Origin: a virus
Taxonomy: Duplodnaviria > Heunggongvirae > Uroviricota > Caudoviricetes
Reading direction: 5' to 3' (one strand)
Virus record (IMG/VR): IMGVR_UViG_2563366958_000013
DNA length: 17,310 bases
The position numbers and the translations under genes are program-made. Within the stretch, counting starts at the first letter, position 1, and every line of letters begins with the position of its first letter. The notes below the pieces were generated by a model that had not been told where the DNA came from, ran no database searches, and saw only the letters and a program-made list of their open reading frames with translations. Shown here in pieces: positions 3,322 through 17,310 of this stretch.

Positions 3322-3737
3322 GTTTTGCCCTGAAACTGGCGCGTGAGATGGGGCGACCCGACTGGCGTGCCATGCTTGCCGGGATGTCATCCACGGAGTA
3401 TGCCGACTGGCACCGCTTTTACAGTACCCATTATTTTCATGATGTTCTGCTGGATATGCACTTTTCCGGGCTGACGTACACCGTGCTCAGCCTGTTTTTC
3501 AGCGATCCGGATATGCATCCGCTGGATTTCAGTCTGCTGAACCGGCGCGAGGCTGACGAAGAGCCTGAAGATGATGTGCTGATGCAGAAAGCGGCAGGGC
3601 TTGCCGGAGGTGTCCGCTTTGGCCCGGACGGGAATGAAGTTATCCCCGCTTCCCCGGATGTGGCGGACATGACGGAGGATGACGTAATGCTGATGACAGT
3701 ATCAGAAGGGATCGCAGGAGGAGTCCGGTATGGCTGA
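2899..3737 (+). CDS. T: tail assembly chaperone G-T fusion, made by programmed -1 ribosomal frameshift near 3297-3303 (G frame to 3302, -1 frame onward)
   Basis: The -1 frame ORF 3303..3737 (…FDGELSFALKLAREMGRPDWRAMLAGMSSTEYADWHRFYSTHYFHDVLLDMHFSG…) matches lambda gpT and has no RBS/start of its own. It is entered from the G frame at the heptamer G GGA AAG. Confidence 0.85.
3297..3303 (+). promoter_or_regulatory. -1 programmed ribosomal frameshift slippery heptamer GGGAAAG (G/G-T)
   Basis: Heptamer g ggA AAG read in the G zero frame (codons GGA 3298-3300, AAG 3301-3303), 6 codons before the G stop; the same slippery sequence and position as in lambda G-T. Confidence 0.85.
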
Positions 3738-6291
3738 ACCGGTAGGCGATCTGGTCGTTGATTTGAGTCTGGATGCGGCCAGATTTGACGAGCAGATGGC
3801 CAGAGTCAGGCGTCATTTTTCCGGTACGGAAAGTGATGCGAAAAAAACAGCGGCAGTCGTTGAACAGTCGCTGAGCCGACAGGCGCTGGCTGCACAGAAA
3901 GCGGGGATTTCCGTCGGGCAGTATAAAGCCGCCATGCGTATGCTGCCTGCACAGTTCACCGACGTGGCCACGCAGCTTGCCGGCGGGCAAAGTCCGTGGC
4001 TGATCCTGCTGCAACAGGGGGGGCAGGTGAAGGACTCCTTCGGCGGGATGATCCCCATGTTCAGGGGGCTTGCCGGTGCGATCACCCTGCCGATGGTGGG
4101 GGCCACCTCGCTGGCGGTGGCGACCGGTGCGCTGGCGTATGCCTGGTATCAGGGCAACTCAACCCTGTCCGATTTCAACAAAACGCTGGTCCTTTCCGGC
4201 AATCAGGCGGGACTGACGGCAGATCGTATGCTGGTCCTGTCCAGAGCCGGGCAGGCGGCAGGGCTGACGTTTAACCAGACCAGCGAGTCACTCAGCGCAC
4301 TGGTTAAGGCGGGGGTAAGCGGTGAGGCTCAGATTGCGTCCATCAGCCAGAGTGTGGCGCGTTTCTCCTCTGCATCCGGCGTGGAGGTGGACAAGGTCGC
4401 TGAAGCCTTCGGGAAGCTGACCACAGACCCGACGTCGGGGCTGACGGCGATGGCACGCCAGTTCCATAACGTGACGGCGGAGCAGATTGCGTATGTTGCT
4501 CAGTTGCAGCGTTCCGGCGATGAAGCCGGGGCATTGCAGGCGGCGAACGAGGCCGCAACGAAAGGGTTTGATGACCAGACCCGCCGCCTGAAAGAGAACA
4601 TGGGCACGCTGGAGACCTGGGCAGACAGGACTGCGCGGGCATTCAAATCCATGTGGGATGCGGTGCTGGATATTGGTCGTCCTGATACCGCGCAGGAGAT
4701 GCTGATTAAGGCAGAGGCTGCGTTTAAGAAAGCAGACGACATCTGGAATCTGCGCAAGGATGATTATTTTGTTAACGATGAAGCGCGGGCGCGTTACTGG
4801 GATGATCGTGAAAAGGCCCGTCTTGCGCTTGAAGCCGCCCGAAAGAAGGCTGAGCAGCAGACTCAACAGGACAAAAATGCGCAGCAGCAGAGCGATACCG
4901 AAGCGTCACGGCTGAAATATACCGAAGAGGCGCAGAAGGCTTACGAACGGCTGCAGACGCCGCTGGAGAAATATACCGCCCGTCAGGAAGAACTGAACAA
5001 GGCACTGAAAGACGGGAAAATCCTGCAGGCGGATTACAACACGCTGATGGCGGCGGCGAAAAAGGATTATGAAGCGACGCTGAAAAAGCCGAAACAGTCC
5101 GGCGTGAAGGTGTCTGCGGGCGATCGTCAGGAAGACAGTGCTCATGCTGCCCTGCTGACGCTTCAGGCAGAACTCCGGACGCTGGAGAAGCATGCCGGAG
5201 CAAATGAGAAAATCAGCCAGCAGCGCCGGGATTTGTGGAAGGCGGAGAGTCAGTTCGCGGTACTGGAGGAGGCGGCGCAACGTCGCCAGCTGTCTGCACA
5301 GGAGAAATCCCTGCTGGCGCATAAAGATGAGACGCTGGAGTACAAACGCCAGCTGGCTGCACTTGGCGACAAGGTTACGTATCAGGAGCGCCTGAACGCG
5401 CTGGCGCAGCAGGCGGATAAATTCGCACAGCAGCAACGGGCAAAACGGGCCGCCATTGATGCGAAAAGCCGGGGGCTGACTGACCGGCAGGCAGAACGGG
5501 AAGCCACGGAACAGCGCCTGAAGGAACAGTATGGCGATAATCCGCTGGCGCTGAATAACGTCATGTCAGAGCAGAAAAAGACCTGGGCGGCTGAAGACCA
5601 GCTTCGCGGGAACTGGATGGCAGGCCTGAAGTCCGGCTGGAGTGAGTGGGAAGAGAGCGCCACGGACAGTATGTCGCAGGTAAAAAGTGCAGCCACGCAG
5701 ACCTTTGATGGTATTGCACAGAATATGGCGGCGATGCTGACCGGCAGTGAGCAGAACTGGCGCAGCTTCACCCGTTCCGTGCTGTCCATGATGACAGAAA
5801 TTCTGCTTAAGCAGGCAATGGTGGGGATTGTCGGGAGTATCGGCAGCGCCATTGGCGGGGCTGTTGGTGGCGGCGCATCCGCGTCAGGCGGTACAGCCAT
5901 TCAGGCCGCTGCGGCGAAATTCCATTTTGCAACCGGAGGATTTACGGGAACCGGCGGCAAATATGAGCCAGCGGGGATTGTTCACCGTGGTGAGTTTGTC
6001 TTCACGAAGGAGGCAACCAGCCGGATTGGCGTGGGGAATCTTTACCGGCTGATGCGCGGCTATGCCACCGGCGGTTATGTCGGTACACCGGGCAGCATGG
6101 CAGACAGCCGGTCGCAGGCGTCCGGGACGTTTGAGCAGAATAACCATGTGGTGATTAACAACGACGGCACGAACGGGCAGATAGGTCCGGCTGCTCTGAA
6201 GGCGGTGTATGACATGGCCCGCAAGGGTGCCCGTGATGAAATTCAGACACAGATGCGTGATGGTGGCCTGTTCTCCGGAGGTGGACGATGA
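3730..6291 (+). CDS. H: tail tape measure protein H
   Basis: 853-aa product, the same length as lambda gpH; N-terminus MAEPVGDLVVDLSLDAARFDEQMARVRRHF and Gly-rich C-terminal region; start overlaps the T stop (ATGGCTGA), RBS AGGAGGAG upstream. Confidence 0.92.
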   Translation: MAEPVGDLVVDLSLDAARFDEQMARVRRHFSGTESDAKKTAAVVEQSLSRQALAAQKAGISVGQYKAAMRMLPAQFTDVATQLAGGQSPWLILLQQGGQVKDSFGGMIPMFRGLAGAITLPMVGATSLAVATGALAYAWYQGNSTLSDFNKTLVLSGNQAGLTADRMLVLSRAGQAAGLTFNQTSESLSALVKAGVSGEAQIASISQSVARFSSASGVEVDKVAEAFGKLTTDPTSGLTAMARQFHNVTAEQIAYVAQLQRSGDEAGALQAANEAATKGFDDQTRRLKENMGTLETWADRTARAFKSMWDAVLDIGRPDTAQEMLIKAEAAFKKADDIWNLRKDDYFVNDEARARYWDDREKARLALEAARKKAEQQTQQDKNAQQQSDTEASRLKYTEEAQKAYERLQTPLEKYTARQEELNKALKDGKILQADYNTLMAAAKKDYEATLKKPKQSGVKVSAGDRQEDSAHAALLTLQAELRTLEKHAGANEKISQQRRDLWKAESQFAVLEEAAQRRQLSAQEKSLLAHKDETLEYKRQLAALGDKVTYQERLNALAQQADKFAQQQRAKRAAIDAKSRGLTDRQAEREATEQRLKEQYGDNPLALNNVMSEQKKTWAAEDQLRGNWMAGLKSGWSEWEESATDSMSQVKSAATQTFDGIAQNMAAMLTGSEQNWRSFTRSVLSMMTEILLKQAMVGIVGSIGSAIGGAVGGGASASGGTAIQAAAAKFHFATGGFTGTGGKYEPAGIVHRGEFVFTKEATSRIGVGNLYRLMRGYATGGYVGTPGSMADSRSQASGTFEQNNHVVINNDGTNGQIGPAALKAVYDMARKGARDEIQTQMRDGGLFSGGGR

Positions 6292-8693: not shown

Positions 8694-11600
8694 ATGGGTA
8701 AAGGAAGCAGTAAGGGGCATACCCCGCGCGAAGCGAAGGACAACCTGAAGTCCACGCAGTTGCTGAGTGTGATCGATGCCATCAGCGAAGGGCCGGTTGA
8801 AGGTCCGGTGGATGGATTAAAAAGCGTGCTGCTGAACAGTACGCCGGTGCTGGACACTGAGGGGAATACCAACATCTCCGGTGTCACGGTGGTGTTCCGT
8901 GCCGGTGAGCAGGAGCAGACACCGCCGGAGGGGTTTGAATCCTCCGGCTCCGAGACGGTGCTGGGTACGGAAGTGAAATATGACACGCCGATCACCCGCA
9001 CCATTACGTCTGCAAACATCGACCGTCTGCGCTTTACCTTCGGTGTACAGGCACTGGTGGAAACCACCTCAAAGGGTGACAGGAATCCGTCGGAAGTCCG
9101 TCTGCTGGTTCAGATACAACGTAACGGTGGCTGGGTGACGGAAAAAGACATCACCATTAAGGGCAAAACCACCTCGCAGTATCTGGCCTCGGTGGTGGTG
9201 GGTAACCTGCCGCCGCGCCCGTTTAATATCCGGATGCGCAGGATGACGCCGGACAGCACCACAGACCAGCTGCAGAACAAAACGCTCTGGTCGTCATACA
9301 CCGAAATCATCGATGTGAAACAGTGCTACCCGAACACGGCACTGGTCGGCGTGCAGGTGGACTCGGAGCAGTTCGGCAGCCAGCAGGTGAGCCGTAATTA
9401 TCATCTTCGCGGGCGCATTCTGCAGGTGCCGTCGAACTATAACCCGCAGACGCGGCAATACAGCGGTATCTGGGACGGAACGTTTAAGCCGGCATACAGC
9501 AACAACCCGGCCTGGTGTCTGTGGGATATGCTGACCCACCCGCGCTACGGCATGGGGAAACGTCTTGGTGCGGCGGATGTGGATAAATGGGCGCTGTATG
9601 TCATCGGCCAGTACTGCGACCAGTCAGTGCCGGACGGTTTTGGCGGCACGGAGCCGCGCATCACCTGTAATGCCTGGCTGACCACGCAGCGTAAGGCGTG
9701 GGATGTGCTCAGTGATTTCTGCTCGGCGATGCGCTGTATGCCGGTATGGAACGGGCAGACGCTGACGTTCGTGCAGGACCGACCATCAGATAAGGTGTGG
9801 ACCTATAACCGCAGTAATGTGGTGATGCCGGATGATGGCGCGCCGTTCCGCTACAGCTTCAGCGCCCTGAAGGACCGCCATAATGCCGTTGAGGTGAACT
9901 GGATTGACCCGAACAACGGCTGGGAGACGGCGACAGAGCTTGTTGAAGATACGCAGGCCATTGTCCGTTACGGTCGTAATGTCACGAAGATGGATGCCTT
10001 TGGCTGTACCAGCCGGGGGCAGGCACACCGCGCCGGGCTGTGGCTGATTAAAACTGAACTGCTGGAGACGCAGACCGTGGATTTCAGCGTGGGTGCTGAA
10101 GGGCTTCGCCATGTACCGGGCGATGTCATTGAAATCTGCGATGATGACTATGCCGGTATCAGCACCGGTGGTCGCGTGCTGGCGGTGAACAGCCAGACCC
10201 GGACGCTGACGCTCGACCGTGAAATCACGCTGCCATCCTCCGGTACCACGCTGATAAGCCTGGTTGACGGAAGTGGCAATCCGGTCAGCGTGGAGGTTCA
10301 GTCCGTCACCGACGGACTTAAGGTGAAAGTGAACCGGGTTCCTGACGGCGTTGCAGAATACAGTGTGTGGGGGCTGAAGTTGCCGACGTTGCGTCAGCGC
10401 CTGTTCCGCTGTGTGAGTATCCGGGAGAACGATGACGGTGCGTATGCCATCACCGCCGTGCAGCATGTACCGGAAAAAGAAGCCATCGTGGATAACGGGG
10501 CGCACTTTGACGGCGACCAGAGCGGCACGGTGAATGGTGTCACGCCGCCAGCGGTGCAGCACCTGACCGCCGAAGTCACCGCAGACAGCGGGGAATATCA
10601 GGTGCTGGCGCGCTGGGACACGCCGAAGGTGGTGAAGGGCGTGAGCTTCCTGCTCCGTCTGACCGTAACAGCGGATGACGGCAGTGAGCGGCTGGTCAGC
10701 ACGGCCCGGACGGCGGAAACCACTTACCGCTTCAGGCAGCTGGCGCTGGGGCGTTACACGCTGACGGTCCGGGCGGTAAATGCCCGGGGACAGCAGGGCG
10801 ATCCGGCGTCGGTATCGTTCCGGATTGCCGCACCGGCAGCACCGTCGAGGATTGAGCTGACGCCGGGCTATTTTCAGATAACCGCCACGCCGCATCTTGC
10901 CGTTTATGACCCGACGGTACAGTTTGAGTTCTGGTTCTCGGAAAAGCGGATTACCGATATCAGGCAGGTTGAAACCACAGCCCGCTATCTTGGTACGGCG
11001 CTGTACTGGATAGCCGCCAGTATCAATATCAAACCGGGCCATGATTATTACTTTTATATCCGCAGTGTGAACACCGTTGGCAAATCGGCATTCGTGGAGG
11101 CTGTCGGTCAGGCGAGCGATGATGCGGAAGGTTACCTGGATTTTTTCAAAGGCCAGATAACCGAATCCCATCTCGGCAAGGAGCTGCTGGAAAAAGTCGA
11201 GCTGACGGAGGATAACGCCAGCAGACTGGAGGAGTTTTCGAAAGAGTGGCAGGACGCTAACGATAAGTGGAATGCCATGTGGGGCGTCAAAATTGAGCAG
11301 ACCAAAGACGGCAAACATTATGTCGCGGGTATTGGCCTCAGCATGGAGGACACGGAAGAAGGCAAGCTGAGCCAGTTTCTGGTTGCCGCTAACCGTATCG
11401 CGTTTATTGACCCGGCAAACGGGAATGAAACGCCGATGTTTGTGGCGCAGGGCAATCAGATATTTATGAACGACGTGTTCCTGAAGCGCCTGACGGCCCC
11501 GACCATTACCAGTGGTGGAAATCCACCGGCATTTTCCCTGACATCAGACGGAAAGCTGACCGCTAAAAATGCGGATATCAGTGGCAGAGTGAATGCGAAC

Positions 11601-12107
11601 GCCGGGACGCTCAACAATGTCACGGTAAATGAAAACTGTACGATTAAGGGCATGCTGGAGGCGACTCAGGTCAGAGGTGACTTCGTTAAAGCTGTATCCA
11701 AATCATTCCCGAAACAGGCTGGTACGTGGGGTAACACGGAAACACCAAACGGGACGGTTACAGTCACCATCAGCGATGATCATAACTTTGACCGTCAAAT
11801 CATTATTCCGCCCATTATCTTTAACGGAATAGCGTATAGCGATCCGGGAAGTGGTAATAACCCGGGAGGTACAAGATACACGGGTTATGGTTTTGAAGTT
11901 CGCAAAAACGGTGTATTAATCGCATCCAGAGAAACTAAAGGGGCCATTCCCGGTAGCTACAGTGCGGTTATTGATATGCCGAGTGGCAGGGGAAGCGTCA
12001 CTCTGGAGTTTAAGGTTTTCCATAAAGGCAATCAGTGGGCAGGTAATATCACCGACTGTACGGTGATTGTGACCAAAAAAGCCGCTTCCGGCATCAGTAT
12101 TCGTTGA
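8694..12107 (+). CDS. J: tail tip attachment / central tail fiber (host specificity) protein J
   Basis: 1137-aa product; the first ~1000 residues ([34 protein letters not shown]...) closely match lambda gpJ as I recall it; the last ~130 residues look divergent. RBS GAGGAA upstream. Confidence 0.92.
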
Positions 12108-12176: not shown

Positions 12177-12776
12177 ATGCGTAAACTTTATGCCGCCATT
12201 TTGTCCGCAGCCATTTGTCTGGCCGTATCCGGTGCGCCTGCATGGGCATCTGAACATCAGTCCACGCTGAGCGCGGGGTATCTTCATGCCCGGACCAACG
12301 TTCCCGGCAGTGATGATCTGAACGGGATTAACGTGAAATACCGTTATGAGTTTACGGATACGCTGGGGCTGGTGACGTCATTCAGCTATGCAGGAGACAA
12401 GAATCGCCAGCTGACCCGTTACAGCGATACCAGCTGGCATGAAGATTCCGTGCGTAACCGCTGGTTCAGCGTGATGGCGGGGCCGTCTGTGCGCGTGAAT
12501 GAATGGTTCAGCGCGTATGCGATGGCGGGTATGGCTTACAGCCGTGTTTCGACTTTTTCCGGGGATTACCTTCGCGTAACTGACAACAAGGGGAAAACGC
12601 ACGATGTGCTGACCGGAAGTGATGACGGTCGCCACAGCAACACGTCTCTGGCGTGGGGGGCTGGCGTGCAGTTTAACCCGACCGAATCCGTGGCCATTGA
12701 TATTGCTTATGAAGGTTCTGGCAGTGGTGACTGGCGCACTGACGGTTTCATCGTGGGTGTCGGTTATAAATTCTGA
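12177..12776 (+). CDS. lom: outer membrane beta-barrel protein Lom (Ail/Lom/PagC/OmpX family), lysogenic-conversion moron
   Basis: 199-aa product MRKLYAAILSAAICLAVSGAPAWASEHQSTLSAGYLHARTNVPGSDDLNGINVKYRYEF...GFIVGVGYKF matches lambda Lom; signal peptide with AWA-SE cleavage context, C-terminal aromatic residue (F) typical of OMP barrels; RBS GAGAGG. Confidence 0.9.
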   Translation: MRKLYAAILSAAICLAVSGAPAWASEHQSTLSAGYLHARTNVPGSDDLNGINVKYRYEFTDTLGLVTSFSYAGDKNRQLTRYSDTSWHEDSVRNRWFSVMAGPSVRVNEWFSAYAMAGMAYSRVSTFSGDYLRVTDNKGKTHDVLTGSDDGRHSNTSLAWGAGVQFNPTESVAIDIAYEGSGSGDWRTDGFIVGVGYKF

Positions 12777-12840: not shown

Positions 12841-15237
12841 ATGGCAGTAAAGATTTCAGGTGTACTGAAAGACGGCACAGGAAAACCGGTACAGAACTGC
12901 TCAATCCAGCTGAAAGCAAAACGTAACAGCACCACGGTGGTAGTGAACACGCTGGCCTCAGAAAATCCGGATGAAGCCGGGCGTTACAGTATGGATGTTG
13001 AGTATGGCCAGTACAGCGTTATCCTGCTGGTTGAAGGTTTTTCGCCTTCACATGCCGGGACCATCACCGTGTATGAAGATTCTAAGCCGGGGACGCTGAA
13101 TGATTTTCTCGGTGCCATGACGGAAGATGATGTCATGCCGGAGGCATTGCGTCGTTTTGAGGAAATGGTGGAAGAAGCGGCACGCAACGCTGAAGCCGCC
13201 TCTCAGAGCGCAGCGGCGGCAAAGAAATCCGAAACTGCAGCGGCATCATCGAAGAACGCGGCGAAAACCTCAGAAACGAATGCAGCTAATAGTGCACAGG
13301 CGGCAGCGACCTCAAAGACTGCATCGGCAAACTCCGCGACAGCAGCCAAAAAATCAGAAACCAACGCGAAAAATAGCGAGACAGCCGCAAAGACGAGCGA
13401 AACCAACGCAAAGTCCAGCCAGACGGCAGCGAAAACCAGCGAAACGAATGCCAAAGCCAGTGAAACTGCGGCAAAAAACAGCCAGGTTGCAGCAGCCCAA
13501 AGCGAGAGCGCGGCAGCCGGTTCTGCGACTTCAGCAGCTGGATCAGCAACTGCTGCGGCTAACAGCCAGAAAGCTGCGAAGACGAGTGAAACTAACGCAA
13601 AGTCCAGCCAGACGGCAGCGAAGACCAGCGAAACGAATGCCAAAGCCAGCGAAACTGCGGCGAAAAACAGTCAGGATGCAGCAGCCCAAAGCGAGAGTGC
13701 TGCAGCTGGTTCTGCAAGCGCGGCGGCTGCTTCTGCCACTGCATCAGCCAACAGTCAAAAAGCAGCAAAAACCAGTGAAACCAATGCAAAGACAAGCGAG
13801 ACTGCAGCGGCGAACTCGGCGAAAGCATCGGCAGCAAGCCAGACAGCAGCTAAAGCAAGTGAAGACGCAGCCAGAGAGTATGCAAGTCAGGCAGCAGAGC
13901 CGTATAAATATGTCTTACAGCCACTGCCTGATGTGTGGATACCGTTTAACGATTCACTGGATATGATTACGGGCTTTTCGCCGTCATATAAAAAAATTGT
14001 TATTGGTGATGATGAAATAACGATGCCTGGCGACAAGGTTGTTAAGTTTAAACGCGCATCAACTGCCACATATATCAATAAATCAGGCGTATTTAGTGTT
14101 GCTAAAATTGATGAGCCACGATTTGAAAAAGAAGGTTTATTGATTGAAGGACAGCGCACTAACTATTTTGTTAAATCCAATACTCCCGCTGAATGGACGA
14201 GTACCAGCAATATCGATAAAACTAATAATGGTGTTGATGAATTTGGTTTTTCATATGCCAAAATGCGAACAAAAGATAATATGACAGGACAATCATCTGC
14301 ACTTAGTCTGCATACATGCAGTGCATCCCGGGGGATTGATGTTTGTGGCGATAATAAGTATTGCACTGTTTCATGCAGGGTTAAAGCTCCTGATGGTCTT
14401 CGTTGTCGTTTGCGTTTTGAAAAATACGATGGGTCGGTTTATACATTTTTAGGAGATGCTTATTTAACTTTCGGAACTCTGATAATAGAAAAAACTGGCG
14501 GAGCAGCCAATAGAATAGCAGCTACTGCAACTAAAGATCCGGTTACAGGGTGGATTTTCTATGAGGCAACTATAGAAGCTGTTGAAGGTGAAACCTTAAT
14601 TGGCGCAATGATTCAGTATGCGCCGAAAAAAGGTGGTATAACTGAAGCGGGAGATTATATTTACCTTGCAACACCACAATTTGAAAACGGCGGATGTGCT
14701 TCATCTTTTGTTATTACGACAACTGCACCCGCAACCCGCTCCAGTGATATGGTGACGATCCCAACTGAAAATAATATCTATAATAGACCGCTTACGTGTC
14801 TTGTCGAGGTTAATAGAAATTGGGGCGATATTCCTCCTAATGTAGCACCGCGTATTTTTGATTTTTCTGGTGTGCCACCTATTGAGTCAATTACATACGC
14901 TTTTAACACAACTGAGAAATATTACGGTCAGCTTTATATGCAAACTTATAAAGCGTCGACAAGTACTTACGTTTCTAGTGTGTTTGCTGGTCGAGCTGAT
15001 GTTCGAAAATTCATTGGTGGTTTTAATATTTATTCTGATGGTACTAAACGAGTAGTTTCTAACGGTGAGGCTACTAAAACTATGAAAACGGAGTGGACGG
15101 GCGTAAAAACACGGACCTTTATTCGAATTGGAGGTCAAGCCACATCGGGAACTCGTCATCTATTCGGCCATTTGAGAAATCTTCGTCTCTGGCATAAAGA
15201 ATTAACTGATGCGCAAATGGGGGAGAGTATTAAATGA
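12841..15237 (+). CDS. stf: side tail fiber protein, chimeric: lambda Stf-like N-terminus, Ala/Ser/Thr-rich repeat shaft, non-lambda C-terminal domain with a LamG/ConA-like signature
   Basis: 798-aa ORF; N-terminus MAVKISGVLKDGTGKPVQNCSIQLKAKRNSTTVVVNT...SKPGTLNDFLGAMTEDDVMPEALRRFEEMVEEAARNAEAA matches lambda Stf as I recall it. The central region is tandem repeats (AAKTSETNAKSSQT...). The C-terminal ~440 aa are AT-rich DNA and end ...GHLRNLRLWHKELTDAQMGESIK, which resembles the terminal motif of Laminin_G_3/ConA-like jelly-roll domains. RBS GGGGGGA upstream. Confidence 0.8.
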   Translation: MAVKISGVLKDGTGKPVQNCSIQLKAKRNSTTVVVNTLASENPDEAGRYSMDVEYGQYSVILLVEGFSPSHAGTITVYEDSKPGTLNDFLGAMTEDDVMPEALRRFEEMVEEAARNAEAASQSAAAAKKSETAAASSKNAAKTSETNAANSAQAAATSKTASANSATAAKKSETNAKNSETAAKTSETNAKSSQTAAKTSETNAKASETAAKNSQVAAAQSESAAAGSATSAAGSATAAANSQKAAKTSETNAKSSQTAAKTSETNAKASETAAKNSQDAAAQSESAAAGSASAAAASATASANSQKAAKTSETNAKTSETAAANSAKASAASQTAAKASEDAAREYASQAAEPYKYVLQPLPDVWIPFNDSLDMITGFSPSYKKIVIGDDEITMPGDKVVKFKRASTATYINKSGVFSVAKIDEPRFEKEGLLIEGQRTNYFVKSNTPAEWTSTSNIDKTNNGVDEFGFSYAKMRTKDNMTGQSSALSLHTCSASRGIDVCGDNKYCTVSCRVKAPDGLRCRLRFEKYDGSVYTFLGDAYLTFGTLIIEKTGGAANRIAATATKDPVTGWIFYEATIEAVEGETLIGAMIQYAPKKGGITEAGDYIYLATPQFENGGCASSFVITTTAPATRSSDMVTIPTENNIYNRPLTCLVEVNRNWGDIPPNVAPRIFDFSGVPPIESITYAFNTTEKYYGQLYMQTYKASTSTYVSSVFAGRADVRKFIGGFNIYSDGTKRVVSNGEATKTMKTEWTGVKTRTFIRIGGQATSGTRHLFGHLRNLRLWHKELTDAQMGESIK
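13387..13764 (+). repeat. two tandem ~189-bp (63-codon) imperfect direct repeats inside stf, with a partial third copy starting at 13765
   Basis: Unit beginning gc(a/g)aagacgag(c/t)gaaac(c/t)aacgcaaagtccagccagacggcagcgaa at 13387 recurs at 13576 with about 90% identity; protein repeat AAKTSETNAKSSQTAAKTSETNAKASETAAKNSQ(V/D)AAAQSESAAAGSA... Shorter ~14-codon sub-repeats extend from ~13200 to ~13860. Confidence 0.8.
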
Positions 15238-15381
15238 AAGATTTAACACTCAAATTTGCAGACAGGGCCGACTTTTCGGCCTTTATGGAGAGCATTGGCT
15301 ATTATGATGACGAGTCGATGCAGGATGATATTCTTATTGACGTGATAGGTAATGTGTACAAAGAAACCGGAGAACTTACTG

Positions 15382-15390
15382 AAGATGGCG
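15382..15390. repeat. IS1 target site duplication, left copy (AAGATGGCG)
   Basis: 9 bp immediately 5' of IS1 IRL, identical to 16159-16167. Confidence 0.9.
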
Positions 15391-15445
15391 GGTGATGCTG
15401 CCAACTTACTGATTTAGTGTATGATGGTGTTTTTGAGGTGCTCCA

Positions 15446-15721
15446 GTGGCTTCTGTTTCTATCAGCTGTCCCTCCTGTTCAGCTACTGACGGGGTGGTGC
15501 GTAACGGCAAAAGCACCGCCGGACATCAGCGCTATCTCTGCTCTCACTGCCGTAAAACATGGCAACTGCAGTTCACTTACACCGCTTCTCAACCCGGTAC
15601 GCACCAGAAAATCATTGATATGGCCATGAATGGCGTTGGATGCCGGGCAACAGCCCGCATTATGGGCGTTGGCCTCAACACGATTTTACGTCACTTAAAA
15701 AACTCAGGCCGCAGTCGGTAA
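15446..15721 (+). CDS. insA: IS1 protein InsA (transposition inhibitor / N-terminal part of InsAB' transposase)
   Basis: 91-aa product [91 protein letters not shown], the IS1 InsA sequence with zinc-finger Cys motif; begins at IS1 nt 56. Confidence 0.95.
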
Positions 15722-16143
15722 CCTCGCGCATACAGCCGGGCAGTGACGTCATCGTCTGCGCGGAAATGGACGAACAGTGGGGCTATGTCGGGGCTAAATC
15801 GCGCCAGCGCTGGCTGTTTTACGCGTATGACAGGCTCCGGAAGACGGTTGTTGCGCACGTATTCGGTGAACGCACTATGGCGACGCTGGGGCGTCTTATG
15901 AGCCTGCTGTCACCCTTTGACGTGGTGATATGGATGACGGATGGCTGGCCGCTGTATGAATCCCGCCTGAAGGGAAAGCTGCACGTAATCAGCAAGCGAT
16001 ATACGCAGCGAATTGAGCGGCATAACCTGAATCTGAGGCAGCACCTGGCACGGCTGGGACGGAAGTCGCTGTCGTTCTCAAAATCGGTGGAGCTGCATGA
16101 CAAAGTCATCGGGCATTATCTGAACATAAAACACTATCAATAA
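15640..16143 (+). CDS. insB: IS1 InsB' reading frame; expressed as InsAB' transposase by -1 frameshift at the A6C motif (15697-15703)
   Basis: -1 frame ORF relative to insA, product ...[55 protein letters not shown]... matches IS1 InsB; the ORF-track start at 15640 is the frame opening, not necessarily a used start; slippery TTAAAAAACTC present. Confidence 0.9.
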
Positions 16144-16158
16144 GTTGGAGTCATTACC

Positions 16159-16167
16159 AAGATGGCG
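16159..16167. repeat. IS1 target site duplication, right copy (AAGATGGCG)
   Basis: 9 bp immediately 3' of IS1 IRR, identical to 15382-15390. Confidence 0.9.
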
Positions 16168-16301
16168 AGCCGGTATGTGTTAAGGAGGACGGATATTTTG
16201 TAAATGTGCGCATCATTAATGATTCGCAAATATCGTCATTATTCGATGAATACGTGGTTGCTGTTGAGCATCAACTCCGTAGCTGGATGTGAGGAAGAAA
16301 A

Positions 16302-17006
16302 ATGGCTACATCGACAGTAATTCCTGATGACATCAAAACGCTAAAGGGAGATGTCAGTAAGGCAAAGGAAGATATTTCCTCAATTAACGTAAAAGTATCA
16401 ACGCTTCAGACTGATATGGACAGTGCAAAGCAGGATATCAGTACCAGATACACAAAAACAGAAGTGGATAATAAGCTGAAAAACAAAGTGGAAGTGAACG
16501 ATCTGGAAAGTGGTCGTTATGGCGGAGATTTTTACCCGCTGACTGGCCGTGAAGCGTTTTATTTATGGGGATTGGGCACAACTACAGCGGCGGCAAATCT
16601 TTATCTTAATCCTGACCCTGCAATTTCGTCTGTGCTGCGGTCAACATCGTCTATCCGCTATAAACATTCAGTAGAGACGATAGATTCAGAGCACGCCGAT
16701 CTCATTTTCAGGATGCGCCCTGTGTGGTACAGGTCGCAATGCGAAAATGACAGGCGTGACTGGGGATTCTATGGATTGATTGCCGAGGAAGTAGGAGAAA
16801 TTGCCCCTCAGTTTGTTCACTGGCGACCAGCCAACGAAGATGATGCACCGGAAACCATTTCCAGCAATGGCCTTGTTGCCGAAGGTGTAATGTACGAACG
16901 TCTGGTTGTTCCACTGATTCACCATATCCAGAAACTGACTGAAAGAGTTGATGAACTTGAGTCAGAATTGAAGTTGTTATCAACTTCCCAAAGCGATATC
17001 GGATAA
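16302..17006 (+). CDS. tail-fiber-like protein: N-terminal coiled-coil segment plus C-terminal intramolecular chaperone (peptidase S74-like) domain
   Basis: 234-aa ORF with RBS GAGGAAG. N-terminus has heptad-like pattern (DIKTLKGDVSKAKEDISSINVKVSTLQTDMDSAKQDIS). C-terminal half carries SSIRYKHSVETID...ADLIFRMRPVWYRSQ...DWGFYGLIAEEVGEIAPQFV, which fits the S74 chaperone consensus as I recall it (SDxRxKxNI...L.PV.Y.W...GFIAQEV.EV.PE.V). Motif-level call only. Confidence 0.5.
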   Translation: MATSTVIPDDIKTLKGDVSKAKEDISSINVKVSTLQTDMDSAKQDISTRYTKTEVDNKLKNKVEVNDLESGRYGGDFYPLTGREAFYLWGLGTTTAAANLYLNPDPAISSVLRSTSSIRYKHSVETIDSEHADLIFRMRPVWYRSQCENDRRDWGFYGLIAEEVGEIAPQFVHWRPANEDDAPETISSNGLVAEGVMYERLVVPLIHHIQKLTERVDELESELKLLSTSQSDIG

Positions 17007-17016
17007 AGGAGGAGTA

Positions 17017-17310
17017 ATGGATATAACACCTTTTCTTCATGCGCTTTGTGCTGTGGCTGCGCAGGTAATGATTGGTCTTTTTGCCGGAAACTGGGTTTAC
17101 GGGGCGATAGCCGGTTGTACGTTCTTCATTGCGCGTGAACACACCCAGGCAGAATATCGCTGGATTGAAATGTTCGGGCATGGCAAGTGGATTAACATGC
17201 CGTGGTGGGGCGGTTTTGATCCGCGTGTTTGGGATGTGGCAAGCCTGATAGATTTTGCTGTGCCGGTGGTGGCGTGTCTGCTGGTCTGGCTGTTGGTTAA
17301 TCGTGGGTGA
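17017..17310 (+). CDS. small hydrophobic (predicted inner-membrane) protein, unknown function
   Basis: 97-aa ORF with strong RBS AAGGAGG 8 nt upstream; two long hydrophobic stretches (FLHALCAVAAQVMIGLFAGNWVYGAIAGCTFFIA and LIDFAVPVVACLLVWLLV) with a Trp-rich loop; stop TGA is the last codon of the window. Confidence 0.5.
   Translation: MDITPFLHALCAVAAQVMIGLFAGNWVYGAIAGCTFFIAREHTQAEYRWIEMFGHGKWINMPWWGGFDPRVWDVASLIDFAVPVVACLLVWLLVNRG

What the first reader, a model, noticed from the sequence alone, without database searches (positions are those of the whole stretch)
16302..17006. Free-standing 234-aa protein with a tail-fiber intramolecular chaperone (S74-like) motif set
The C-terminal half contains the three motif blocks I associate with peptidase S74 autoproteolytic chaperone domains of phage tail fibers and endosialidases: SSIRYKHSVETID, LIFRMRPVWY and GFYGLIAEEVGEIAPQFV. 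These domains normally end large fiber or spike proteins and cleave themselves off after trimerisation. Here the domain follows only ~110 residues of coiled-coil-like sequence in a separate gene. It could be a minimal fiber or adaptor, a remnant of a larger fiber gene from the donor module, or a trans-acting chaperone for stf.
Basis: partly seen in the sequence, partly recalled or inferred. Interest (0 to 1): 0.6.

Follow-up and report, generated by a model that had tools for sequence, protein, structure and literature searches.

The report
Minimal self-cleaving distal side-tail-fibre subunit
This 234-residue prophage gene is a real, conserved mini tail-fibre protein with its own self-cleaving folding domain; it most likely plugs onto the end of the phage's side tail fibre, and does not look like a leftover fragment or a helper that folds the main fibre.

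Summary
ORF 16302..17006 (+) encodes 234 aa. Its C-terminal half is a Peptidase_S74 intramolecular chaperone (IMC) domain: Pfam 27.3 bits against a cut-off of 22, an invariant Ser116/Lys121 pair, and a predicted fold whose best PDB matches are all IMC domains.

It is not a remnant. dN/dS is about 0.2. Its own region, together with the downstream orf97, is in 740 of 5,426 complete E. coli genomes. A 60%-identical, syntenic orthologue is present in virulent T1-like phages.

It sits in a conserved cassette: a proximal fibre ending in a lectin-like domain, then a ~93-aa protein, then a distal protein. All the distal proteins share the N-terminal motif M.T.T.IP.DI and a C-terminal S74 domain, but range from 221 to 574 aa. 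One of them is IrisVonRoten Gp24, which has been modelled as docking on the proximal fibre. This ORF is among the shortest alleles seen.

Residues 49-234 also occur fused to the C-terminus of single-chain Stf proteins. Phage 21 and PhiR49_2 have the same Stf type, orf93 and orf97 without any S74 gene, and IMC type does not track Stf type. Both points argue against a role as a trans chaperone for Stf.

In this window an IS1 element splits the upstream 93-aa gene. It is a new member of a known kind, of modest interest.

The parts
16302..17006 (+). orf234: CDS of the distal side-tail-fibre subunit (234 aa plus stop; 26.3 kDa)
   Evidence: ORF listing and translation. 100% identical protein in phage PhiR49_1 and in E. 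coli SCU-172 WP_000235966.1, annotated 'tail fiber domain-containing protein'. Molecular weight.
16291..16295 (+). Shine-Dalgarno GAGGA, 6 nt upstream of the ATG; it overlaps the stop codon of orf93 (16290-16292)
   Evidence: Read directly from the sequence.
16302..16346 (+). N-terminal adaptor motif MATSTVIPDDIKTLK (M1, T3, T5, I7, P8, D10, I11 invariant); inferred docking element for the proximal fibre and/or orf93
   Evidence: Invariant in 7 syntenic distal proteins of 221-574 aa from lambdoid, T1-like, Nonagvirus and T5-like phages. tblastn with the N-terminal 68 aa finds it at the start of otherwise unrelated proteins. PHROG 4563 'tail fiber protein' matches residues 1-49 to profile positions 1-47.
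16326..16481 (+). Predicted alpha-helical (coiled-coil-like) stalk, residues 9-60
   Evidence: AF2 helices 9-49 and 52-60, with pLDDT about 77-81 for 11-40. Weak coiled-coil Pfam hits. Heptad-like D(V/I)S(T/S)LK repeats whose number varies among alleles.
16482..16646 (+). Small pre-cleavage tip segment, residues 61-115; with the YTKTEVD fibre-repeat motif at residues 49-55 it is the part that would remain on the mature fibre
   Evidence: dN/dS 0.09-0.12 for residues 50-115. Homologous to the segment just before the IMC in long fibres. The YTKTEVD motif aligns with repeats of the L-shaped tail fibre protein 8hqz_d. Low pLDDT as a monomer, as expected for an interdigitated trimer.
16647..16649 (+). 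Ser116 codon: predicted nucleophile; predicted scissile bond Thr115|Ser116
   Evidence: Invariant in 33 homologues. Aligns with residue 1 (SDERHK) of the crystallised GA-1 gp12 IMC chain 3gud_A, and with the corresponding positions of MyRF ICA and of 8hqz_d.
16662..16664 (+). Lys121 codon: predicted general base, at Ser+5
   Evidence: Invariant in 33 homologues. Aligned with the Lys of SDERHK, SDRRIK and SGIEYK in solved IMC-containing chains.
16647..17003 (+). Peptidase_S74 intramolecular chaperone domain, residues 116-234 (13.75 kDa), ending in a long C-terminal helix (198-233)
   Evidence: Pfam PF13884 above its cut-off. AF2 pLDDT 82-95. All Foldseek PDB hits with E<0.3 are IMC/ICA domains: 7dc3, 3gud, 3gw6. 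Profile search against PDB sequences: 8hqz_d 7e-16, 6f45_A 5e-11, 7dc3 2e-7, 3gud 5e-4.
12841..15237 (+). stf: proximal side tail fibre (798 aa) with phage_tail_N N-terminus, an Ala-rich repeat shaft and a lectin-like (LamG/galectin-type) C-terminal ~450 aa
   Evidence: Pfam and PHROG hits. The C-terminal 450 aa are 48-58% identical to the proximal fibres of KarlJaspers, HMD-P4, IrisVonRoten Gp22 and others. A galectin-like domain is described for Gp22 in PMC11990801.
15234..15390 (+). orf93, 5' fragment (codons 1-52); its start overlaps the stf stop (ATGA)
   Evidence: Alignment with the intact gene of E. coli SCU-172. Family phrog_1361, function unknown.
15391..16158 (+). IS1 (768 bp; insA/insB ORFs 15446-16143) inserted in orf93; 9-bp target duplication AAGATGGCG at 15382-15390 and 16159-16167
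   Evidence: Sequence and alignment. Hits are annotated as IS1 family transposase, and no complete E. coli genome carries this junction.
16168..16292 (+). orf93, 3' fragment (to stop TGA at 16290-16292)
17017..17310 (+). orf97: small predicted membrane protein that forms the conserved downstream flank of the variable distal-subunit slot
   Evidence: phrog_1443. 89-97% conserved next to different distal alleles, and in phage 21 and PhiR49_2, which have no distal gene. Phage 21 annotation: putative membrane protein with 2 TMDs.

Best explanation
orf234 is one of the shortest alleles of a facultative distal subunit of a multi-component side (lateral) tail fibre. Three chains are proposed to be nucleated and registered by their own C-terminal S74 intramolecular chaperone domains (residues 116-234). 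After trimerisation, each chain would cut itself between Thr115 and Ser116, using Ser116 as nucleophile and Lys121 as base, and release the 13.75-kDa chaperone. That would leave a 12.6-kDa-per-chain mature trimer made of an N-terminal adaptor (MATSTVIPDDI...), a short coiled-coil stalk and a small tip. The adaptor would dock this mini-fibre non-covalently on the distal end of the proximal fibre Stf. Stf's lectin-like C-terminal domains would splay sideways, and the ~93-aa protein encoded between the two genes might take part. What is shown: the domain identity, the catalytic residues, the fold, the synteny, the adaptor conservation, the cassette mosaicism, the purifying selection and the dispensability of the gene for the Stf/orf93 pair. 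What is inferred: trimerisation, cleavage, docking on Stf and any receptor binding by the tip. In this particular window an IS1 insertion splits orf93, so the module may be impaired here.
For: 1. Domain: PF13884 scores above its gathering cut-off. Ser116 and Lys121 are invariant in 33 homologues. They align with the first residue of the crystallised GA-1 gp12 IMC chain and its Lys at +5, and with MyRF and the L-shaped tail fibre protein 8hqz_d. AF2 models the IMC at pLDDT 82-95, and the top Foldseek PDB hits are only IMC/ICA structures.
2. Synteny: the order proximal fibre, then ~92-aa protein, then adaptor+S74 protein is found in lambdoid phages (PhiR49_1, PhiR63_1, 2G7b, IdasGreatGrand, PhiR55_1), Drexlerviridae (KarlJaspers), Nonagvirus ESCO3, and the T5-like HMD-P4 and IrisVonRoten. 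All distal proteins tested carry PF13884.
3. Adaptor: the N-terminal motif is invariant while the protein bodies range from 221 to 574 aa.
4. Published precedent: AlphaFold-Multimer models place IrisVonRoten Gp24, which occupies the same slot, on the proximal fibre Gp22, which carries a galectin-like domain (PMC11990801). The window's Stf C-terminus is 51% identical to that of Gp22. DT57C LtfB is a separate fibre protein with pfam13884 that attaches through LtfA by its N-terminus (PMC4728585).
5. Mosaic: compared with 2G7b and PhiR63_1, identity is 92-97% across orf93, stays high for the first ~60 nt of the distal gene, falls to 20-40% across its body, and returns to 91-97% in orf97.
6. Fused relatives: residues 45/49-234 are 57-61% identical to the extreme C-termini of Stf proteins of 735 and 958 aa that carry the same phage_tail_N N-terminus. 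In those proteins this cassette is the distal end of a one-chain fibre.
7. Selection: dN/dS is 0.19-0.23 overall, and 0.09-0.12 for residues 50-115, the part that would remain on the virion.
Against: The mature part is tiny (115 aa) and has no recognisable receptor-binding domain. AF2 gives residues 59-114 a pLDDT below 50. GenBank records from the BASEL collection call the orthologues 'putative lateral tail fiber chaperone'. The co-variation between the adaptor and orf93 could simply reflect that they are physically adjacent. The text and figure legend of the Humolli paper disagree on whether Gp22 or Gp23 is the proximal partner. Side tail fibres are dispensable in lambda, so the viability of phages that lack the gene is only indirect evidence.
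Confidence: 0.68

Rival explanations
1. Trans-acting chaperone: orf234 trimerises and acts only as an assembly factor for the 798-aa Stf encoded two genes upstream. It would occupy the functional niche of lambda Tfa and would not become a structural part of the virion.
For: It lies downstream of stf, in the region where lambda encodes tfa. Its mature part is very small. BASEL and other depositors annotate the orthologues as 'putative lateral tail fiber chaperone' or 'chaperone of endosialidase'. Golomidova et al. noted that LtfA seems unstable without LtfB (PMC4728585).
Against: Phage 21 and PhiR49_2 have the same Stf C-terminal domain (51-54% identity over ~440 aa), orf93 and orf97 with no S74 gene or S74 motif in the locus. 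The Vequintavirus EmilHeitz has a homologous fibre C-terminus (35% identity) plus an orf93-like gene, again without an adjacent S74 gene. IMC type does not follow Stf C-terminus type: KarlJaspers is 48% (Stf C-terminus) and 65% (IMC) identical, PhiR63_1 is 58% and 27%. The Ser/Lys self-cleavage pair is invariant, and residues 50-115 are under the strongest purifying selection; neither is needed for a pure trans chaperone. There is no Tfa-type Pfam hit. The same slot holds a 574-aa protein described as a T-shaped receptor-binding fibre.
Confidence: 0.12
2. Structural cap without receptor function: the mature 115-aa trimer (or the uncleaved protein) merely plugs or stabilises the distal end of Stf, or transiently masks its lectin domains. 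The larger alleles in the same slot would be the true receptor binders.
For: Only about 55-65 residues separate the stalk from the cleavage site, and no binding domain is recognisable. The slot is facultative. Transient chaperone caps on fibres are cited as a concept in PMC11990801.
Against: The same residues 49-115 form the distal end of one-chain Stf proteins of 735-958 aa, which have no other recognised distal domain after the shaft. That suggests the tip can be the business end. The strong purifying selection on this segment fits either reading.
Confidence: 0.15
3. Non-functional remnant: a C-terminal fragment left over from a larger fibre gene after recombination or IS1 activity.
For: PHROG 3299 aligns the whole protein to the last 240 positions of a 1,385-position profile. 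Nearly all of the 150 best relatives carry the homologous region at the C-terminus of 300-1,284-aa proteins. An IS1 lies 143 bp upstream.
Against: It has its own SD and ATG, and the same start in all orthologues. Identical or near-identical full-length copies, in a query that also spans orf97, are in 740 of 5,426 complete E. coli genomes and in inducible or virulent phages. dN/dS is about 0.2. The IS1 is a simple insertion with a 9-bp duplication inside orf93 and does not touch orf234.
Confidence: 0.03

Closest known systems
C-terminal intramolecular chaperone domain / Peptidase S74 (K1F endosialidase gp17, T5 pb1 L-shaped fibre, GA-1 gp12; Pfam PF13884)
   Same: HMM match above the cut-off, Ser...Lys(+5) pair, predicted fold with a long C-terminal helix, and position at the extreme C-terminus after fibre-like sequence.
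   Different: The cargo is only 115 residues, against many hundreds in the classic cases. The protein is not itself anchored to the tail; it has an adaptor N-terminus and is encoded downstream of another fibre gene. Cleavage is untested.
IrisVonRoten (Tequintavirus) Gp22-Gp23-Gp24 lateral fibre; T-shaped distal fibre Gp24 (Humolli et al. 2025, PMC11990801)
   Same: Orthologous three-gene cassette. The Stf C-terminus is 51% identical to that of Gp22 and orf93 is 40% identical to Gp23. The N-terminal motif (MVTKTVIPTDI versus MATSTVIPDDI) and the C-terminal PF13884 domain are shared with Gp24.
   Different: Gp24 is 574 aa, with Gp12-like and T5-like receptor-binding domains. orf234 lacks both and keeps only the adaptor, a short stalk, a small tip and the IMC.
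DT57C / DT571/2 LtfB, branched L-shaped tail fibre (Golomidova et al. 2016, PMC4728585; Ayala et al. 2023, PMC10713586)
   Same: A second fibre protein encoded in a separate gene, with its own pfam13884 autocleavable domain, attached to the virion through the first fibre protein by its N-terminus.
   Different: No detectable homology was shown between the LtfB N-terminus and this adaptor. LtfA itself carries an IMC, whereas the Stf here ends in a lectin-like domain. There is no small intervening gene in DT57C as described.
Single-chain lambdoid Stf proteins ending in the same tip+IMC cassette (P0065, 735 aa; P0066, 958 aa)
   Same: 57-61% identity to residues 45/49-234; the same phage_tail_N N-terminus as the window's Stf.
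   Different: There the cassette is covalently fused to the shaft. Here it is a separate polypeptide with an added adaptor.
Lambda Tfa / Mu U / T4 gp38-type tail fibre assembly proteins (trans chaperones)
   Same: A small gene downstream of the fibre gene. Some depositors apply a chaperone label to the orthologues.
   Different: No sequence-family match. It is not obligatorily coupled to its supposed client. It carries a self-cleavage pair typical of cis-acting IMCs.
MyRF ICA domain (7dc3)
   Same: Best structural match (Foldseek E=6e-5) and a significant sequence-profile match. The Ser/Lys positions align, with Ala at the Ser position in the crystallised chain.
   Different: A eukaryotic membrane-bound transcription factor; it is relevant only as a structural homologue.

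Membership tests
Peptidase S74 / intramolecular chaperone domain (PF13884) | Match to the family HMM above the curated gathering score | tested here: met
   27.3 bits against a cut-off of 22, E=4.6e-6, residues 116-172 on profile positions 1-57 of 58.
Peptidase S74 / intramolecular chaperone domain (PF13884) | Catalytic Ser with Lys five residues downstream at the domain's N-terminal boundary | tested here: met
   S116 and K121 are invariant in 33 homologues. They align with S1/K6 of the GA-1 gp12 IMC chain 3gud_A, with SGIEYK of 8hqz_d and with the MyRF ICA site.
Peptidase S74 / intramolecular chaperone domain (PF13884) | IMC fold (compact alpha/beta core followed by a long C-terminal helix that forms a trimeric coiled coil) | tested here: met
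   The AF2 monomer gives residues 120-234 a pLDDT of 82-95, with helix 198-233. All Foldseek PDB hits with E<0.3 are 7dc3, 3gud or 3gw6. The trimeric state itself was not modelled.
Peptidase S74 / intramolecular chaperone domain (PF13884) | Located at the extreme C-terminus of a fibre or spike polypeptide | tested here: met
   The domain ends the protein. The upstream part contains the YTKTEVD fibre motif and is homologous to the pre-IMC segment of long fibres.
Peptidase S74 / intramolecular chaperone domain (PF13884) | Autoproteolytic release after trimerisation | not testable with these tools
   Needs expression and SDS-PAGE or mass spectrometry. Predicted products are 12.57 and 13.75 kDa from a 26.3-kDa precursor.
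Multi-component / branched lateral tail fibres (distal subunit docking on a proximal fibre; IrisVonRoten Gp24, DT57C LtfB) | Separate gene downstream of the proximal fibre gene in a conserved cassette | tested here: met
   The same gene order is found in 10 loci from five phage groups.
Multi-component / branched lateral tail fibres (distal subunit docking on a proximal fibre; IrisVonRoten Gp24, DT57C LtfB) | Conserved N-terminal attachment module in front of exchangeable distal bodies | tested here: met
   M1, T3, T5, I7, P8, D10 and I11 are invariant in 7 proteins of 221-574 aa. The recombination boundary lies just after the adaptor.
Multi-component / branched lateral tail fibres (distal subunit docking on a proximal fibre; IrisVonRoten Gp24, DT57C LtfB) | Physical attachment to the proximal fibre in the virion | not testable with these tools
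   Only monomer prediction was available. The published multimer model concerns the IrisVonRoten orthologue.
Multi-component / branched lateral tail fibres (distal subunit docking on a proximal fibre; IrisVonRoten Gp24, DT57C LtfB) | Recognisable receptor-binding domain in the distal subunit | tested here: inconclusive
   No domain other than S74 is detected. Residues 59-114 are modelled with low confidence. However, the same segment ends one-chain Stf proteins.
Trans-acting tail fibre assembly chaperones (lambda Tfa / Mu U type) | Membership of a Tfa-type sequence family | tested here: not met
   No such Pfam or NCBIfam hit.
Trans-acting tail fibre assembly chaperones (lambda Tfa / Mu U type) | Obligatory co-occurrence and co-variation with the client fibre domain | tested here: not met
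   The Stf C-terminal domain plus orf93 occur without the S74 gene in phage 21, PhiR49_2 and EmilHeitz. IMC identity does not track Stf C-terminus identity.

The most novel reading that the evidence does not exclude
orf234 would be the smallest natural cargo of an S74 intramolecular chaperone: a 115-residue mature trimer with no receptor-binding domain. On this reading its role is regulatory. It would act as a facultative cap that docks through the conserved adaptor (with orf93) on the lectin-bearing end of Stf and switches or masks glycan binding, possibly with the uncleaved chaperone serving as a transient cap. That would define a plug-in slot, shared by lambdoid, T1-like, T5-like and Nonagvirus phages, that accepts anything from a bare cap to a dual-domain T-shaped fibre.
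Probability: 0.15. Interest if true: 0.55.

Novelty: new member of a known kind. Interest (0 to 1): 0.33.

Why it matters
The gene family is common. The query spanning this gene and orf97 is found in 740 of 5,426 complete E. coli genomes, and homologues are in many T1-like phages used in phage collections. Yet it is labelled inconsistently: 'hypothetical', 'tail fiber domain-containing', 'chaperone of endosialidase', 'lateral tail fiber chaperone'. Recognising it as a minimal allele of an exchangeable distal-subunit slot gives a concrete handle for engineering host range. The slot is bounded by a ~15-residue adaptor plus orf93 on one side and orf97 on the other. It also corrects a likely mis-annotation. 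A 115-residue cargo would be a convenient minimal system for studying how an IMC nucleates trimer folding and then cuts itself off.

Tried and rejected
1. A profile of the full-length mixed alignment A1 searched against PDB sequences gave no hit. Trimming to the IMC region (A5) fixed this.
I re-ran it with alignment A2.
3. orf93: there was no Pfam family, PHROGs gave only families of unknown function, the only PDB sequence hits were chance GAPDH matches, and the AF2 model was unusable (pLDDT 49). Its role therefore stays open. The homologue search returned only close E. coli relatives among those listed.
4. The promoter and terminator scan between the IS1 and orf234 found nothing above shuffled expectation, so it does not show whether orf234 is still expressed in this window.
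5. A search for the IS1/orf93 junction in complete E. coli genomes found no genome with this insertion, so I could not identify the source strain.
6. A literature search for in-trans action of IMC domains turned up nothing relevant.
7. The pseudogene or remnant reading was rejected on conservation and dN/dS.
8. The minus-strand ORF 16708..17181 that overlaps the gene was treated as a mechanical ORF and not pursued.
Full report
**Observation**

The ORF at 16302..17006 on the + strand exists as described. It has an ATG start, encodes 234 aa and ends with TAA. A GAGGA Shine-Dalgarno sequence lies six bases upstream.

Pfam PF13884 (Peptidase_S74, 'chaperone of endosialidase') matches residues 116-172 with 27.3 bits, above the curated cut-off of 22. 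An exhaustive HMMER search of 1.84 billion cluster representatives finds 3,465 relatives at E<=1e-3.

**Catalytic residues and fold**

In an alignment of 33 homologues, S116 and K121 are invariant. A profile built from the chaperone region alone matches solved chains that contain this domain:
- the L-shaped tail fibre protein 8hqz_d (E=7e-16);
- a 'long tail fiber distal subunit', 6f45_A (5e-11);
- the MyRF ICA domain 7dc3 (2e-7);
- the GA-1 gp12 intramolecular chaperone 3gud_A (5e-4).

The 3gud chain begins SDERHK, and its first Ser aligns with S116 and its Lys with K121. The predicted scissile bond is therefore Thr115|Ser116, giving fragments of 12.57 and 13.75 kDa.

AlphaFold2, run as a monomer with a 33-sequence alignment, models residues 120-234 at pLDDT 82-95 with a long terminal helix. 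It predicts an N-terminal helix at 9-49 and leaves 59-114 at low confidence. Foldseek against the PDB returns only IMC/ICA structures at E<0.3: 7dc3, 3gud and 3gw6.

**Genomic context**

The window is the tail end of a lambdoid prophage. The gene order is:
- J (8694-12107);
- lom (12177-12776);
- stf (12841-15237, 798 aa);
- a small gene starting at 15234;
- IS1;
- orf234;
- a 97-aa membrane-like ORF that runs to the window end.

Comparison with the intact locus of E. coli SCU-172 shows that a 768-bp IS1 (15391-16158) has inserted into a 93-aa gene (orf93). It is flanked by a 9-bp duplication, AAGATGGCG. None of 5,426 complete E. coli genomes has this junction. By contrast, a query spanning orf234 and orf97 is present at >=80% coverage in 740 of them. 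A protein 100% identical to orf234 is encoded by phage PhiR49_1.

**A conserved cassette**

The order proximal fibre, then ~92-aa protein, then S74 protein recurs in five phage groups:
- lambdoid phages: PhiR49_1, PhiR63_1, 2G7b, IdasGreatGrand, PhiR55_1;
- Drexlerviridae: KarlJaspers;
- a Nonagvirus: ESCO3;
- T5-like phages: HMD-P4 and IrisVonRoten gp22-23-24.

The C-terminal ~450 residues of the proximal fibres are 48-58% identical to the window's Stf, and orf93 is 40-98% identical. The third gene varies from 221 to 574 aa. It always starts with M.T.T.IP.DI (seven invariant positions) and, in every case tested, ends with PF13884. orf234 is among the shortest alleles of this slot.

For IrisVonRoten, Humolli et al. 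(PMC11990801) published AlphaFold-Multimer models. In them Gp24, a T-shaped fibre with an IMC, attaches to the proximal fibre, whose galectin-like domain protrudes at its C-terminus. For DT57C, Golomidova et al. (PMC4728585) showed genetically that a second fibre protein with its own pfam13884 domain is held on the virion through the first fibre protein by its N-terminus.

**Cassette behaviour**

Against 2G7b and PhiR63_1, nucleotide identity changes along the locus as follows:
- 92-97% across the end of stf and orf93;
- still high for the first ~60 nt of the distal gene;
- 20-40% across the rest of the distal gene;
- 91-97% in orf97.

So the body of the distal gene, including its IMC, is exchanged between conserved flanks, as host-range modules are. 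Residues 45/49-234 of orf234 are 57-61% identical to the extreme C-termini of 735- and 958-aa proteins. Those proteins start with the same phage_tail_N domain as the window's Stf. The same tip-plus-IMC unit therefore exists either fused to a one-chain Stf or, as here, as a separate polypeptide with an adaptor.

**Against the remnant reading**

dN/dS against two alleles that differ by 7-9% at the protein level is 0.19-0.23. Values are 0.09-0.12 for residues 50-115 and 0.09-0.23 for the IMC. The orthologue in virulent T1-like phages is 60% identical over the same start and about the same length. The IS1 does not touch orf234.

**Against the trans-chaperone reading**

Phage 21 and PhiR49_2 encode an Stf with the same C-terminal domain (51-54% identity over ~440 aa), an orf93 homologue and orf97 (89-90%). 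They have nothing between orf93 and orf97, and no S74 motif in the locus. The Vequintavirus EmilHeitz has a 1,478-aa fibre with a homologous C-terminus (35%), followed by an orf93-like gene and then an unrelated 196-aa protein.

The Stf C-terminal domain therefore travels with orf93, not with the S74 protein. The S74 gene is a facultative insert.

IMC type is also uncoupled from Stf C-terminus type. KarlJaspers is 48% (Stf C-terminus) and 65% (IMC) identical to the window, while PhiR63_1 is 58% and 27%. Invariance of the self-cleavage pair and strong constraint on the pre-cleavage segment are expected for a cis-acting chaperone with a structural cargo, not for a dedicated trans chaperone.

One caveat applies. 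Side tail fibres are dispensable in lambda, which rests on established knowledge and was not tested here. The viability of phage 21 therefore does not by itself prove that its Stf assembles.

**Most likely mechanism**

Shown: the domain, the catalytic residues, the fold, the synteny, the adaptor, the mosaicism, the selection and the facultative nature of the gene.

Inferred: three orf234 chains trimerise through their IMC domains. This registers the small 61-115 tip and the 9-60 coiled coil. Each chain then cleaves at Thr115|Ser116 and the chaperone leaves. The mature 115-residue trimer docks through its N-terminal adaptor on the distal end of Stf, possibly with orf93, and extends the fibre axis beside the lectin-like domains.

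It remains open whether the tiny tip binds a receptor or only caps the fibre. In this window the IS1 in orf93 may impair the module. A consensus scan gave no information on residual expression.

**Unresolved**

The role of orf93 is unknown: it has no informative family match and the AF2 model failed at pLDDT 49. orf97 is a conserved small membrane protein of unknown role.

**Verdict**

This is a genuine S74-bearing tail-fibre protein. It is best read as a minimal member of a known class, the separately encoded distal lateral-fibre subunits with their own intramolecular chaperone. It is a new member of a known kind. Interest is modest, with some value for annotation and for phage host-range engineering.

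Noticed in passing
window 15391-16158 (TSD at 15382-15390 and 16159-16167): A 768-bp IS1 with a 9-bp target duplication (AAGATGGCG) is inserted in the 93-aa gene between stf and orf234. None of 5,426 complete E. coli genomes carries this junction, so the insertion looks private to the source strain and may be polar on orf234.
   Followed up: yes
window 15234-15390 + 16168-16292 (orf93); L003:5853-6134: The 93-aa protein (phrog_1361, function unknown) co-occurs with the lectin-like fibre C-terminus in 183 phage records, including lambdoid, T1-like, T5-like, Dhillonvirus, Queuovirinae and rV5-like phages, even where no S74 gene follows. It is probably a partner or assembly factor of that fibre domain. 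The AF2 model was unusable.
   Followed up: partly
window 17017-17310 (orf97): A small hydrophobic 97-aa protein (phrog_1443) is 89-97% conserved downstream of very different distal-subunit alleles, and directly after orf93 in phage 21 and PhiR49_2. The phage 21 record annotates it as a membrane protein with 2 TMDs. Its function is unknown; it could be a moron or an exclusion factor.
   Followed up: partly
L012 (phage 21) 3501-4085; L013 (PhiR49_2) 3501-4082: These lambdoid phages have stf-orf93-orf97 with an empty distal-subunit slot: only a 9-12-nt spacer separates orf93 from orf97.
   Followed up: yes
window 13150-13900 (stf shaft): The Stf shaft is a long Ala/Ser/Thr-rich array of imperfect ~14-residue repeats (SETNAK.S.TAAK...). 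It also generates long spurious ORFs in other frames and on the opposite strand (for example 13127-13966 + and 13203-13643 -).
   Followed up: no
L003 7172-8369 (downstream of the window's end in E. coli SCU-172): Fragments annotated as 'tail fiber assembly protein' pseudogenes lie downstream of orf97. They suggest that the LamG-type Stf end plus orf93/orf234/orf97 displaced an ancestral stf-tfa arrangement. The prophage sits next to ompT-envY-ybcH.
   Followed up: no
hits H158-H161: Several records named 'Campylobacter phage' (A116, A12a, C12, C2) give orf93 hits with the same coverage, identity and score as the listed E. coli rV5-like phages. This raises the question of whether those records are mislabelled or contaminated.
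   Followed up: no
PMC11990801, Fig. 12 legend versus main text: The paper names the proximal fibre of IrisVonRoten as Gp22 in the legend and Gp23 in the text. In the GenBank record, gp22 is the 796-aa fibre and gp23 is the 92-aa orf93 homologue.
   Followed up: partly
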